Source of the DNA: Hormiphora californensis
Taxonomy: Eukaryota > Animalia > Ctenophora
Assembly (NCBI GenBank): GCA_020137815.1
Contig: CM035351.1
Span: 8,246,001-8,310,000 of the forward strand
Reading direction: 5' to 3'
Length of the DNA stretch: 64,000 bases
A program made the translations under genes and the position numbers. This document shows positions 4,472 through 19,715 of this stretch, piece by piece. The notes below the pieces were generated by a model. The model was not told the origin of the DNA and searched no databases. It saw only the letters and a program-made list of their open reading frames with translations. The first letter of the stretch is position 1, and each line of letters opens with the position of its first letter.

Positions 4472-7400
4472 TTACATAATGCTCGCTATCACTAGGCAAG
4501 CCAATATAGTTGTCATGGTTACTCCAGGGGTGGTTGCGGAGGAGACTATCTGCTCAACGCACTCGGGTAGTTCCTCACTCCAAGTGTTATCACTCCGACA
4601 CGTTAGCATACTGTGACCAATGAGGCTATACCTGTACAGGATATATTGAATGAGGTGTTACTATACAGGGTGTCCCACTGTCTTTGCATCACCTGTGATT
4701 TTGGGTCAGGACCGGGCTCCATTAAACTAACCAAAACTCATCGAAAAATTGGTCAAAACGGTTCTAACAAAAACCAGTGTTCTAGAGAATTGTCTGGCGA
4801 ACATTTTAATGGCAAGATTGACGTTCCAAGTCTTACCAATCGTCATATATATCGTCGTAAAGTCAAAAGTACGTGTTCATGAAATCCGACCGGGGTTCAC
4901 GTTTTGAAAAATTCACAAATGCAAAGTTGCTCGGATCACATTGCATCCCTCATAAGAGTTGTAGGAAATTGTCTGGCGGTCATTTTGGTACCCGGGTTTT
5001 TGTCCTAGCTCAATGTTTAGAGTGTCTTATGACTGTCTAAAGACGGAATTCAACCAGCATTTTTGAGGAGATCACGTGTCATCAACAAATGGGTAAAATT
5101 ATTTGAAATTTACAAGAGCTTCATTGGAATCGTCTAAGGTTCATTTTGATACCATGATTTTTTCCATAGCTTTATGTTTTAGTTGCGTTATGACTGTAGA
5201 AACATGAAAATTGTTCTATGCTGAGTCTTAGTTGGTATCGGCTCACAACCCCTAATTAGGTGGCTCGGTGTCGTGTGTAATCCCATGATAATCAGCACAT
5301 ATCGTCTCAATTTCATCTAGACACTTGACAGGGTTGTTATGACGATTTGGCAAGGCCCCTGTAAATGTGTAGGATACGCAAGTGGTCTATCTCAACCCTA
5401 TCATGCACTAACATGTTATTCAAGCAGCAATGAGCTTCATAACAGGGCAAAATGCAATGCGATACCTGAGACCACTTTTGGAAAAATTCCAGTTCTGACA
5501 GTCATAAGACACTCTAAACATTGAGCTAGGACAAAAACCCGGGTACCAAAATAACCGCCAGACAATTTCCTACAACTCTTATGAGGGATGCAATGTGATC
5601 CGAGCAACTTTGCATTTGTGAATTTTTCAAAACGTGAACCCCGGTCGGATTTCATGAGCACGTACTTTTGACTTTACGACGATATATCTGACGATTGGTA
5701 AGACTTGGAACGTCAATCTTGCCACCAAAATGTTCGCCAGACAATTCTCTAGAACGCTGGTTTTTGTTAGAACCATTTTGACCAATTTTTCGATGAGTTT
5801 TGGTTAGTTTAATGGAGCCCGGTCATCACACAAAATCACAGGTGATGCAAAGACAGTGGGACACCCTGTATATAGACACCATAGAGTATACCGGCCTAGT
5901 GGTAGAATTAGCTTAGAAATCTGCCGATAATCCATTTCTTTATTACAGAGTGGTGATGCTGATGTACCCATTTTCAGGGGGTTATAATATGAGCATTAGT
6001 GAACGGCCACGATAACAATGTGTTTAGCAACAGGTGGTTGGAGTGAGCTTTTTGGTGGGATAATGGGTAAGAGGGATGATGAGGTCACAGAGACAGAGAC
6101 AGAGACAGAAAGAGAGAGAGAGAGAGAGAGAGAGAGAGAGAGAGAGAGAGAGAGAGAGAGAGAGAGAGAGAGAGAGAGAGAGAGAGAGAGAGAGAGAGAG
6201 AGAGAGAGAGATAGAGAGATAGAGAGATAGAAAGTGCAAGGATGAGATAGCTTGGAGGGTTGAGATTTAATCATTAGTCTGTAAAATGCACATTTTACAA
6301 CCACGTAATATAAAAAGTGCAGTTTGTAGAGGGTGGAATTATGTGTTTTAAACGGTTTTCCCTAGCCTAGAAGGTGAGGGAGAGACATTGACCAGCTGTA
6401 GTGTGAGATGCTATGATCTCTATCTTCCTATCTCTCTTTCCCGGGAGGCCTCTCTCTCACACACACACACAAACTATGGTATAGTTTACCCGTTTTTGCA
6501 TGAAAATGGTACGACATCTGCCGACACGAAGGGAGCACCGTCTGCTGTGGTGCTAGGAGAGGCTGTTGTTTCGCCGTTTTTAACAGATTCGGTTATGTCA
6601 CTACATCCACCTGAAATTATGGGGAATTATTTTTTTCTTTTAATTTGATGTCTCTCTCGCTCTCTCTCTCTCTCTCTCTCTCTCTCTCTCTCTCTCTCTC
6701 TCTCTCTCTCTCTCTCTCTCCTCTCTCTCTCTCTCCTCTCCTCATCTCTCTCTCCCCTCACTCTCTTCTCTCTCTTCTCTCTCTCTCTCTCTCTCTCCTC
6801 TCTCTTCTCTCCTCTCTCTCTCATCCTCCTTCTCTCTCTCTTCTTCTCTCTCTCTCTCTCCCACTCCTCCTCTCTCTTCTCTCTCTCATCTCCTCTCTCT
6901 CTCTCTCTCTCGTCTCTCTCTCTATCTCTCTCTCTCTCTCTCTCTCTCTCTATATCTCTCTCTCTCTTTTGATATTGCTATTTGCAGAAGACAGAATAAT
7001 GATGAATCATGAATTTTGAGCTTGACAACTGAGCTTGACAACTTTAACTATGAAACAATCGATCGTGACGCTTCAAACTTGACTTGTGTTATGTCCCCAT
7101 ATAAGGCTGCTGATAACGGATCCCCTGTCAGAGCATTGGACCTGACAGCGGATCCCTGATAGACCTCCCTTACTCAACAAGTCAGGGACATGAGCCAGAT
7201 AATGGAACCAGATAACTCCATCTGTGCATTGAAAGATTGTGTGCTTTCAACACACATGAGACATCGCACACGGTAAAAAACACCGCCTATTCTCTAAAAA
7301 AGCACACAATTCGTTATGTGCAGATGGAATTATCTGGCTCACTTCCCGGGGAATCTTTCCTGACTTTAGCTTAATTCGCCGTGCTATATCATCAGTCAGC

Positions 7401-16890: not shown

Positions 16891-19715
16891 TCAATCTTCC
16901 TGGGGTTGAATATAGATGCACTCGGGTAGCTGCTCATTCCAAATGTTTGCCCCAGTACACGTTAGAGTCCTGTATCCCGTCAGCTGGTAGCCCGTATTAC
17001 ACCTGTACAATGTGGTAAAATAATCCGCTAAATCGAAGGAGGCTTCTATAATCACACTAGAGCTTTTGGTTGAAAGACTAATCGAAGTTTAAATTAGTTT
17101 TTGTTACTTTAAGAATACTTAGCACTTGTTGCTCATGATGGCTTTAGCTAAGCTTCTTACGTAAAAGTCACGGTGTCTCCTGGGGTAAAGGGGGCAGTAC
17201 CCACGGTCGTACTAGCTCTATCGGTTGTTATACCATTCGTCACTTCTTGGGTGATATCCTTACAGCCACCTAGAGGTAACAGAGAAATTAGTAACCTAGA
17301 GGTAACAGAGAAATTAGTATCCTAGGTAACAAAGAAATTAGTAACCTAGGTAACAGAGAAATTAGTAACCTAGGTAACAGAGAAATTAGTAACCTAGGTA
17401 ACAGAGAAATTAGTAACCTAGAGGTAACAGAGAAATTAGTAACCTAGGTAACAGAGAAATTAGTAACCTAGGTAACAGAGAAATTAGGTGAAAACCTTTC
17501 TATTCTTGTTGAGTAACTTGTTCAGTAAGAGGAACCCACACAGTGAGGAAGCTCCTCCTGACAGTAGTGCTCAATCAAGTTGTAAGGGGGCTTCCTCGAG
17601 GAAGCCCGCCCCCCCCCCCCCTTACAACTTGATTGAGCACTACTGTCAGGAGGAGCTTCCTCCCTGGGTTGGTTCTTTTGACATGTAAGGCGCCTTAGGC
17701 TTCACGCAGTTACTATAAAACATTTAATACAGTTTGAAGTTATTTTACGCAAGGCTCCTTTCAAGTAATCTCAAAAGGTGGTGACCCTACATTGTAGGGC
17801 CTACAAGGGAATACCCAATTATACACGTGACTTCAGCCAGCTTGTGATCCCTCGAAAATTCCACGAATCCACAAAAGTTCATTTCTTGGTACATATTATT
17901 TAAATAATATATTTTTAAATAATATATTTTTAAATAATATATTTTAATTTCTCATTTTGGAAGCTTATTAATTCTGACAAGATTCAATAATGTGGAATTG
18001 GCTTCATTCTCGATGCTGTTCCTTGAGTGCTTTGCGAGGCGAGAAGTGTTCCTACAGTCGGGTTCCCTTGTAATACACTAGGTATGCTATTAGTTGGGTT
18101 CGTTGGTGGTATAGCATGCTTTTAGTAAATTTCTTTCTTCTAAATTCTTTAGCTAGTGCCTTCATATTATTATGGTGGGATGTACTACCCCATTAGTATA
18201 AAGTCCATATACATATGTAGGGATTAACTTACTAATGCAGTCGATGACATTGGTAGTTGACCAGGCCACAGCACCAGTGTCAGCATCCTTCTCACACAAA
18301 ATAGAAGTCTTCCCAACGTTGCCTGCTGATCTAGTGTACCCTGTAATATGTTTTGTTGAGTAAGTAATGTTCACTGTTATATAGCTAGATTAGCCGATTA
18401 TATAGCGTCCTATCTAGTCTACTCCGTCAGATATTTTTCTGATCCTATGTAGTTTTGAGACTTCATGTTACCATGGTTACCATATTATGGCATGATAGAC
18501 CATGTGTTACCTGGTTGACAAGCTAGGGTGACGCTCATAAAGTTGTTGTGGGTGATAGGAGGGCTGTTCTCCTCGCTGGTTATGATGGAAGCGGGGTAGG
18601 TCGCTGCGTAGAGGTCCTCCCGAAACGGTGTACAACCCTCTGCAGAGGTGGGGGGGGGGGTAGAGGGTTGCAGTTGGGGGTTGCAACATACCATTATGTG
18701 TATACCATTATGTTATTTTGCATACCTTTCAGGCAGCACGTGAGAGTCTGATACAACTCGTTATTAACGATATTAAAATGGAGATGAAATAGAAAATGCA
18801 GTATCATCAATGCAAATGATCATGATACTGCATTTTCTATTTCATAGTGTGATATATATCGCTCGAACGATATATCACACGATCAGGGATCTTGAGATCA
18901 ATTAACTTACCATCGCAATACAAGTATCTCTTATCTCCGTTTAGATCGGTTGCAATGTCTGGGGATATGACCCCCTCATCGCACTTTACATCCACCCCCA
19001 TCCCCTGGTCCAGATTGTACACAACCACTCCCTTTGTCCTCCTCACCCCGTTCACAAATTGCTGAAATTGGGATCGTTGAGTAGGGATCGTTGAGTATTA
19101 TATAGGAAAGAGGCGTTTCCGTTTAGTTGGTGTTTGTACACAGTTTACTCTATATGCCAGAGCCCCTATAAACTTGCCAGAAACTTAGAAAATGAGAATA
19201 AAGTAATTACTTACATATCCCGATACGCTACATTTGAAGTTATACGTCTTTCCGTTATCCAGTTTTGAGGTATCCTCGACGGTCTCGCCGTCAAGTTGGA
19301 CTGCCACCTGACCATCTACTGTGATTAAGCAATCATCGCCCCTTGCCAAGTCTGCAAAATAAAATACCGTGTTCTAAAAATCCTGATTTACTGGGCATTA
19401 ACCCTTTCCCACAAGCATCCCGGTATATCGGGGAGACTGTCTCTCAGTGACAGTTGACAACTTTGTAGAACAACTTTCAGCTGTGTCTATAATCCCTTTA
19501 CGCTCGTCTCTATCGGTTCATTGTATTGTTCATACTATTATGGGGCGCGGGGGAGGTGCAACAGCACAATCGGTTCAGAGCTCCTGTCCATTTTTTATGA
19601 TAATTTCCGAAATGAACCAATTAGATAAAGTTGGATAGATTCAAGAAACGAGAGACAAGTTTCAAGAGTATAGTATACCTGTTTGCAGTCCTAAGATCAA
19701 AAACAACAAAATCAT
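16891..19715 (-). CDS. Sushi/CCP-repeat protein paralog D, apparently secreted
   Basis: Exons ~19679-19715 (MILLFLILGLQT), 19215-19351, 18912-19062 (QFVNGVRR...RYLYCD), 18511-18639, 18233-18340, 17161-17269, 16891-17002 (CNTGYQLTGYRTLTCTGANIWNEQLPECIYIQPQED*). Confidence 0.85.
17270..17487. repeat. 24-26-bp tandem repeat of a splice-acceptor region
   Basis: About 9 units of GTAACAGAGAAATTAGTAACCTAG(AG), directly abutting the acceptor AG of a paralog D exon. Confidence 0.9.
17545..17662. repeat. Near-perfect hairpin / tiny MITE
   Basis: GAGGAAGCTCCTCCTGACAGTAGTGCTCAATCAAGTTGTAAGGGGG ... CCCCCTTACAACTTGATTGAGCACTACTGTCAGGAGGAGCTTCCTC. Confidence 0.8.

What the first reader, a model, noticed from the sequence alone, without database searches (positions are those of the whole stretch)
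4472..19715. Tandem cluster of four divergent three-Sushi genes: two membrane-tethered, two secreted
Seen: four same-strand genes share a signal peptide and three 4-Cys modules with anchors F(V/T)N(G/E/D)(V/I)R, RY(L/T)(Y)C-x-GC, SP(P/A), C..GY, GC.DIT..V and PF...D.V.F.C, but the loops differ strongly. A and B end in small residues plus a hydrophobic tail (GPI-signal-like); C and D stop 3-8 residues after the last Cys. Known: clustered CCP genes that mix GPI-anchored and soluble forms characterise the vertebrate regulators-of-complement-activation locus (CD55 versus factor H/C4BP). Inference: a lineage-specific recognition system (immunity, self/non-self, gamete or adhesion) with anchored receptors and soluble partners or decoys. 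The ORF track shows only fragments of it.
Basis: partly seen in the sequence, partly recalled or inferred. Interest (0 to 1): 0.8.

Follow-up and report, generated by a model that had tools for sequence, protein, structure and literature searches.

The report
Comb-jelly glue-cell Sushi gene cluster
Four neighbouring comb-jelly genes encode related three-module Sushi proteins, two predicted to be membrane-anchored and two predicted to be secreted, in a cluster shared with distant comb jellies and likely used in the sticky prey-catching cells of the tentacles rather than in immunity.

Summary
Observation confirmed. Four minus-strand genes (260-306 aa, 33-40% identical, 12 shared Cys) each give a signal-like start and three 4-Cys modules; A and B end in a hydrophobic tail, C and D stop 3 and 8 residues after the last Cys. 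The window is from a Pleurobrachia ctenophore. Module 3 is canonical Sushi; modules 1 and 2 are enlarged Sushi-like modules. The cluster is not a young immune array: A and C have orthologues in Bolinopsis and Mnemiopsis (59-67% identical) at neighbouring loci, with the same tail types. Domain coordinates indicate that the Mnemiopsis cluster equals gene models ML04418a and ML04419a (a fusion), both among the 'colloblast candidates' of Babonis 2018, genes missing from Beroe and Haeckelia; 13 of those candidates share this architecture. Best reading (0.5): surface and secreted proteins of the tentacle's adhesive cells. That link rests on coordinates, not sequence, and on one evolutionary loss that coincides with a diet change. 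No expression or binding data for these four genes. An unnamed ctenophore family of a known domain type; valuable as a testable lead to the unknown colloblast glue.

The parts
16891..19715 (-). Gene D, 260 aa, predicted secreted; exons 19715-19679, 19351-19215, 19061-18911, 18639-18511, 18340-18233, 17269-17161, 17002-16891
   Evidence: Open spliced model; Pfam Sushi in last exon E 5.9e-6; 47-48% identical to unnamed P0004 and P0007, which also stop just after the last Cys; not placed in a supported clade
14330..16386 (-). Gene C, 270 aa, predicted secreted; exons 16386-16359, 16084-15903, 15744-15591, 15291-15167, 14924-14807, 14685-14577, 14426-14330
   Evidence: Open spliced model; clade 100/99 with XP_063694721 and Mnemiopsis ACHWQZ_G012043, all three ending 3 residues after the last Cys; junctions of exons 5-6-7 shared with the P. 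bachei model P0001 (88 of 90 aa identical)
11504..13652 (-). Gene B, 306 aa, hydrophobic GPI-signal-like tail, a run of basic residues in the stalk; exons 13652-13467, 13145-12974, 12752-12637, 12146-12029, 11832-11504
   Evidence: Open spliced model; Pfam Sushi E 2.8e-10 in exon 5; exons 1 and 5 present in P0001; longest window branch, no orthologue among the sequences held
4472..11362 (-). Gene A, 300 aa, hydrophobic GPI-signal-like tail; exons 11362-11317, 11164-11022, 8953-8776, 7737-7483, 6610-6490, 4631-4472
   Evidence: Open spliced model; 67% identical over 291 aa to Bolinopsis microptera XP_063694719; clade 96/98 with it, Mnemiopsis ACHWQZ_G012045 and unnamed P0037

Best explanation
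The four genes are members of a conserved ctenophore family of three-module Sushi (CCP) proteins, two predicted to be GPI-anchored and two predicted to be secreted, that likely work on the surface and in the secretion of colloblasts, the adhesive cells of the tentacle. Shown: gene structures, paralogy, canonical Sushi in module 3, orthologues of A and C in lobate ctenophores, two discrete tail types across the family. Inferred: modules 1 and 2 are enlarged CCP modules; the Mnemiopsis cluster equals ML04418a plus ML04419a; the family was lost with colloblasts. Proposed and untested: module 3 is a membrane-proximal spacer, modules 1-2 with their conserved inserts form the binding end, A and B display that end on the cell or granule membrane, and C and D are released on contact and link prey surface to cell (this bridging step about 0.2-0.25 on its own).
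For: ML04419a (767 aa) has Sushi borders at 139-214 and 218, equal to Cys 139, 214 and 218 of the Mnemiopsis C orthologue P0033, and a last Sushi of span 62 with a 33-residue tail, equal to the Mnemiopsis A orthologue P0032; each fingerprint fits 1 of 19 family rows, and the two genes are near neighbours in that order (G012043, G012045). Its neighbour ML04418a (268 aa, span 62, tail 7) fits D (tail 8). Both are colloblast candidates of PMC6278862 (present in at least 70% of 36 ctenophore taxa, absent from three Beroe and two Haeckelia species and from the B. ovata genome). 13 of the 15 candidates with Pfam Sushi have the same layout: one Pfam hit, last module of span 58-64, 2-58 residues from the end, 12 of them 243-326 aa long. 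3 of these 13, ML04419a among them, lie in the 27-gene cluster that peaks at 11 and 14 h, during tentacle formation. All named family members are ctenophore proteins. Tails are bimodal: 9 of 19 rows 1-8 residues, 10 of 19 rows 24-44 residues and hydrophobic.
Against: No ML2.2 sequence was seen: the MD5 test matched 0 of 31 and 0 of 22 sequences, so identity with ML04418a/ML04419a rests on coordinates and on the recalled rule that SMART borders fall on the first and last Cys. Beroe plus Haeckelia are one clade, so the loss is a single event, and both also left crustacean prey. The candidate list is loose: only 46 of 138 expressed candidates were up in tentacle bulb and 29 of 189 fell in the putative colloblast cells C52/C53, and I could not see whether these genes are among them. 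Absence from an orthogroup is not absence of all homologues. The authors found no likeness of candidates to known adhesives. B and D have no orthologue confirmed by sequence.
Confidence: 0.5

Rival explanations
1. The family serves the crustacean diet elsewhere than in colloblasts, for example prey recognition or mucus binding in mouth, pharynx or gut gland cells, and was lost when Beroe and Haeckelia changed prey.
For: The same single loss explains it: both genera moved to atypical prey (PMC6278862). Most candidates in that list were not shown to be tentacle-enriched.
Against: ML04419a peaks during tentacle formation in embryos, in a cluster with two more proteins of this layout. No catalytic or lectin domain in any of 15 members scanned against Pfam.
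Confidence: 0.17
2. Innate-immune or self/non-self receptors with soluble decoys, working like CD55/factor H or like tunicate Fester.
For: Anchored plus soluble CCP-only proteins in one cluster; fold and sequence searches return complement regulators; paralogues differ most in module 1 (20-33%) against module 3 (45-60%).
Against: Those matches come from the shared domain: the best stretch is module 3 in all 60 rows shown. Orthologues keep 53-79% per module across Pleurobrachia and lobates. Differences from P0001 are 2 of 90 aa in C and 6 of 62 in B exon 1. Pleurobrachia individuals were reported to fuse without rejection (PMC11565835, N=8). The Mnemiopsis immune-repertoire paper mentions Sushi only as a partner of lectin and SRCR domains.
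Confidence: 0.13
3. Extracellular organisers of neuron or synapse contacts, like the CCP proteins LEV-9 and Hikaru genki (recalled), or general matrix adaptors.
For: CCP-only secreted and GPI-type proteins have such roles elsewhere (recalled); colloblasts and neurons share a lineage (PMC6278862 Discussion); long conservation of paralogues suits a wiring role.
Against: Beroe has neurons yet reportedly lacks the orthogroups; the ML ids tested were not in the supplements of two ctenophore neural papers, which is weak.
Confidence: 0.12
4. Gamete recognition proteins.
For: GPI-type and secreted surface proteins in tandem are common among gamete recognition factors (general knowledge).
Against: Orthologues are conserved over a deep split; embryonic peak at 11-14 h; loss in a whole clade that still spawns.
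Confidence: 0.05

Closest known systems
Sushi-domain colloblast candidates of Mnemiopsis leidyi (Babonis et al. 2018, PMC6278862; ML04418a, ML04419a and 11 more)
   Same: Length, position and span of the one Pfam-visible Sushi, both tail types; ML04419a borders fit the C and A orthologues exactly.
   Different: The paper notes only an enrichment of the Sushi term; in the parts I read it names no family, no extra modules, no anchored/secreted split and no cluster, and ML04419a appears to fuse three genes.
Uncharacterised database proteins XP_063694719, XP_063694721 (auto-named SVEP1-like), KAL5256986, KAL5256988
   Same: Orthologues of A and C, neighbouring loci, same tail type.
   Different: Unstudied; the SVEP1-like name is not apt, since no vWA, EGF or pentraxin domain is present.
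Vertebrate regulators of complement activation (CD55, CD46, CR1, factor H, C4BP)
   Same: CCP-only chains; GPI-anchored and soluble forms in a cluster; best fold matches (Foldseek E 5e-8; VIA Z 9.5 with rmsd 22; module 3 alone rmsd 1.3-1.5 over about 60 residues).
   Different: 10-32% identity; three modules, two of them 75-100 residues long with inserts instead of about 60; sequence match centred on module 3; no sign of orthology or of C3b/C4b partners.
Invertebrate CCP surface proteins: Botryllus Fester, C. elegans LEV-9, Drosophila Hikaru genki (all recalled)
   Same: Extracellular CCP proteins used for recognition or clustering outside complement.
   Different: None appeared among the 29 profile hits by name; different architectures.

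Membership tests
Sushi/CCP domain (PF00084), module 3 | Four Cys, Trp before the last Cys, score above the curated cut-off, CCP fold | tested here: met
   40.9 bits against cut-off 20.7 in B exon 5; 15 of 15 homologues match; rmsd 1.3-1.5 to solved CCPs for the model of the Bolinopsis A orthologue
Sushi/CCP domain, module 2 | Profile or fold match to CCP | tested here: inconclusive
   Pfam E 0.09, under the cut-off; hhalign 64% against canonical repeats and 90% against module 3, reversed controls at most 1.1%; aligns to CCP pairs inside the full model; folded alone it gave pLDDT 45. Likely CCP.
Sushi/CCP domain, module 1 | Profile or fold match to CCP | tested here: inconclusive
   No Pfam hit on exon pieces; hhalign 65% against canonical repeats with a 16-residue insert, reversed control 0.1%; Atlas top hits 0.93 are Sushi-clan clusters, Sushi on 12% of the first; residues 27-46 of the model under pLDDT 50 in part; not folded alone. 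Likely a much enlarged CCP.
Regulators of complement activation | Tandem canonical CCP modules of about 60 residues | tested here: not met
   Only 1 of 3 modules is canonical; module 2 spans 74-81 and module 1 about 87-103 residues between outer Cys
Regulators of complement activation | Binding and regulation of C3b/C4b | not testable with these tools
   No assay; no whole genome is held to look for C3
GPI-anchored proteins (A, B) | Signal peptide, small-residue omega site, terminal hydrophobic stretch without cytoplasmic tail | tested here: inconclusive
   Hydrophobic stretch ends 1 and 3 residues from the C-terminus with small residues 17-24 upstream; my crude omega rule also fires on soluble members, so it does not discriminate; no dedicated predictor available
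Colloblast candidate genes (Babonis 2018) | Orthology to a listed Mnemiopsis gene | tested here: inconclusive
   Coordinate fingerprints fit; no sequence or MD5 match
Colloblast candidate genes (Babonis 2018) | Absence from Beroe and Haeckelia; expression in tentacle bulb or cells C52/C53 | not testable with these tools
   Absence taken from the paper; no Beroe-named hit among 29, but most family hits are unnamed; single-cell tables not held
Allorecognition loci | Extreme allelic polymorphism | tested here: inconclusive
   Only two other near-identical sequences: 2 of 90 (C), 6 of 62 (B exon 1), 2 of 85 (A exon 4) differences; allele or sister species cannot be told apart

The most novel reading that the evidence does not exclude
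This unnamed three-CCP family is the protein core of the colloblast glue: secreted members are discharged onto prey and lock onto anchored members through an enlarged, ctenophore-specific first module, an adhesive built from complement-type modules and kept as a four-gene cluster since the Pleurobrachia-lobate split.
Probability: 0.2. Interest if true: 0.82.

Novelty: new variant of a known kind. Interest (0 to 1): 0.52.

Why it matters
The colloblast adhesive is described as an unknown protein glue (10.1101/2020.06.27.175059, abstract). This work turns an anonymous enrichment term into a defined family with four corrected gene models, a conserved cluster in culturable species, a signature motif and a clear anchored/secreted split, so in situ, knockout and tentacle proteomics tests become direct. 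It also shows that automatic annotation fused these genes in P. bachei (P0001) and probably in Mnemiopsis (ML04419a). If the immune reading were right instead, it would be a complement-regulator-like cluster in one of the earliest animal branches.

Tried and rejected
No whole genome held, so no genome-wide count, no C3 search. RNA: no RNA holder listed for 9960-17272; the one run offered (X1, RNA status a guess, contigs only) gave 4 short contigs 84-92% alike to B exon 2 and C exon 3 and no joints; two C-like contigs stop exactly at the exon start 15744 and a B-like one runs on into letters like the start of B exon 3, a weak hint for those borders in a relative, nothing on expression here. Word-index searches: B exon 5 found 2 proteins, module-1 profile none of 719 candidates, full profile 3 of 6767. 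Of 29 HMMER hits I set 5 aside as unrelated repeats or generic Sushi (P0008, P0014, P0020, P0024, P0027); P0034-P0036 were left out of the tree as near-duplicates. Module 2 folded alone gave pLDDT 45 and was not searched. Weak PDB sequence hits of module 1 to Ig domains (Dscam E 0.011) and of module 2 to fungal Als adhesins (E 0.055) were judged chance. Complex prediction of the A and C orthologues: no answer, score 0.00, no evidence either way. One fused polyprotein rejected: each unit has its own start, signal-like stretch and stop, and separate orthologues exist. Extra hydrophobic last exon for C or D: no strong donor after the last Cys and C orthologues end at the same place; not excluded by transcripts. 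Literature: ctenophore+sushi 25 papers, 21 listed; colloblast+sushi 1; six ML ids 0; ctenophore+CCP domain+tentacle 0; six database ids, 140 papers, the 20 listed all unrelated number matches; supplements of PMC9525235, PMC9949713, PMC11184263 held none of the ML ids asked. PMC6040636 and PMC4337882 are not held; their supplements may state the cell type. Three look-ups in earlier scan notes found nothing.
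Full report
1. What is in the sequence. The region 4472-19715 holds four genes on the minus strand, transcribed in the order D, C, B, A. With exon ends taken from a mechanical list of splice sites, all four models are open from ATG to stop and all 21 introns are GT-AG. The proteins are 260, 270, 306 and 300 aa, 33-40% identical, with 12 aligned Cys in three groups of four. 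A profile made from 15 homologues, without any window sequence, hits 22 segments of the four genes and nothing else in the window below E 0.4.

2. Organism. The last exon of B is 98% identical to P0001, filed as EP00116_Pleurobrachia_bachei_P004729. P0001 is a chimeric model that joins the 3' half of C to parts of B, so the order C-B holds in that assembly too. Differences are 2 of 90 aa in C and 6 of 62 in B exon 1. The window is thus P. bachei or a close relative; I cannot tell which.

3. Are all three modules Sushi? Module 3 is (Pfam 40.9 bits; 15 of 15 homologues). An AlphaFold2 model of the Bolinopsis orthologue of A (15-row alignment, mean pLDDT 81, pTM 0.65) returns CCP proteins from Foldseek (best E 5e-8) and VIA-align (best Z 9.5, rmsd 22 over three modules; module 3 alone rmsd 1.3-1.5). 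Profile comparison with 14 canonical repeats gives 97% for module 3, 64% for module 2 and 65% for module 1, against at most 1.1% for five reversed controls. The Atlas places module 1 near Sushi-clan clusters at 0.93, a lead only. So modules 1 and 2 are likely enlarged CCPs. Module 1 carries an insert of about 16 residues after its second Cys whose Phe, Asn and Arg are invariant: a family signature, not a variable loop.

4. The family is old and conserved. A profile of module 2 against 1.84 billion representatives gave 29 hits, 24 of them family members or fragments. In a 19-row tree, A groups with XP_063694719, G012045 and one unnamed protein (96/98), C with XP_063694721 and G012043 (100/99); B and D are unplaced. 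Orthologues share 53-79% per module, paralogues 20-60%; I have no genome-wide baseline for these figures. Tail type follows orthology, and across 19 rows tails are either 1-8 residues (9) or 24-44 and hydrophobic (10). Only three intron positions are common to all four genes, two of them phase-1 introns at module borders; the rest differ or are missing, which also points to old duplications. No named member lies outside ctenophores, but 16 of the 20 looked up have no name.

5. The functional lead. Babonis et al. 2018 (PMC6278862; I read parts 2-3 of 9 of the text, the first part of the Discussion, passages, and parts 1-2 plus searches of supplementary file 1) list 189 'colloblast candidates', present in at least 70% of 36 ctenophore taxa and missing from Beroe and Haeckelia, and note that Sushi is over-represented. 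Fifteen candidates carry Pfam Sushi; 13 have the layout seen here. For ML04419a (767 aa) the borders 139-214 and 218 equal Cys 139, 214 and 218 of the Mnemiopsis C orthologue, and the last module (span 62, tail 33) equals that of the A orthologue; each fits 1 of 19 rows. A weak Sushi at 362-439 in between fits module 2 of a B-like gene, not uniquely. The neighbour ML04418a (268 aa, tail 7) fits D. I infer that ML04418a plus ML04419a is this cluster. No ML2.2 sequence was seen, and MD5 digests matched none of my sequences, as may be expected of another assembly. ML04419a and two more of the 13 lie in the cluster that peaks at 11 and 14 h, during tentacle formation.

6. Limits of that lead. Beroe and Haeckelia form one clade and both changed prey, so the pattern is one loss with two possible causes. 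Only 46 of 138 expressed candidates were up in tentacle bulb and 29 of 189 fell in putative colloblast cells. The single-cell paper and the P. bachei genome paper are not held; their supplements may settle the cell type.

7. How it most likely works. Shown: secretory-type N-termini by hydropathy, three disulphide modules, two tail classes, conserved cluster. Inferred: A and B are GPI-anchored, C and D are soluble; module 3 is a spacer, since it is the most canonical and the most alike among paralogues; the enlarged modules 1-2 face outward and bind. B has a run of basic residues between module 3 and its tail that could allow shedding (inference). Best reading, 0.5: colloblast surface and granule proteins; the specific idea that soluble members bridge prey and anchored members is about 0.2-0.25. 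Colloblasts release an unidentified protein adhesive on contact (10.1101/2020.06.27.175059; abstract and Introduction read). Rivals: diet-linked recognition outside colloblasts 0.17; immune or self/non-self 0.13; neural or matrix organiser 0.12; gamete 0.05.

8. Comparison with known systems. It resembles the RCA cluster in build (CCP-only, anchored plus soluble) but fails the test of tandem canonical modules, and in all 60 PDB rows shown the best stretch is module 3. Pleurobrachia individuals were reported to fuse (PMC11565835; abstract and Results read), which does not favour strict allorecognition. The Mnemiopsis immune paper (PMC11797021; passages) mentions Sushi only beside lectin and SRCR domains. 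A review (PMC11359984; passages) cites a factor-B-like gene in Mnemiopsis, so complement-related roles are not excluded. PMC6485061 (passages) and PMC11184263 (passages and supplement search) added nothing on this family. I found no description of the family in the searches listed under Tried and rejected; subscription journals and preprint supplements were not visible.

9. Verdict. A real, correctly read cluster; an unnamed ctenophore family built from a known domain, with an enlarged first module; orthologues are in databases and probably in a published candidate list, but not described as a family. New variant of a known kind; interest 0.52.

Noticed in passing
window 4472-19715: Intron positions differ among the four paralogues: three are shared; the signal-exon intron sits at three places or is absent, the module-2 intron at three places or is absent, the module-3 intron at two places or is absent. 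Suggests frequent intron gain, loss or sliding.
   Followed up: partly
window 4654-5880: 1.2-kb element in the last intron of gene A with 384-bp terminal inverted repeats (96.6%), like a non-autonomous DNA transposon.
   Followed up: no
window 3690-4192 and 7852-8332: Two inverted copies (85%) of a 500-bp element with an internal palindrome.
   Followed up: no
window 9059-9939, 17274-17487, 17532-17675: Intronic 29-bp x 30 and 24-bp x 9 tandem arrays, the second ending at the acceptor of D exon 6, and a 144-bp palindrome.
   Followed up: no
window 33083-33904 (-): Long single ORF with a signal-like start and two PLAT/LH2 domains (Pfam E 1.6e-16).
   Followed up: no
window 35369-35971 (+), 38354-38749 (-), 55033-57789 (+): Rhodopsin-family GPCR piece (E 1e-11), thioesterase-like piece (E 8e-5), and ORFs that look by eye like cadherin and tyrosine-kinase exons (no Pfam support).
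   Followed up: no
window 47500-53900: Several kilobases of degenerate GC-rich repeat arrays with periods of 10 to 327 bases.
   Followed up: no
PMC6278862 supplement, scaffold ML0230: Five numbered neighbours (ML02309a, ML023010a, 12a, 13a, 15a) are colloblast candidates, two with this Sushi layout: possibly a second tandem cluster of the family.
   Followed up: no
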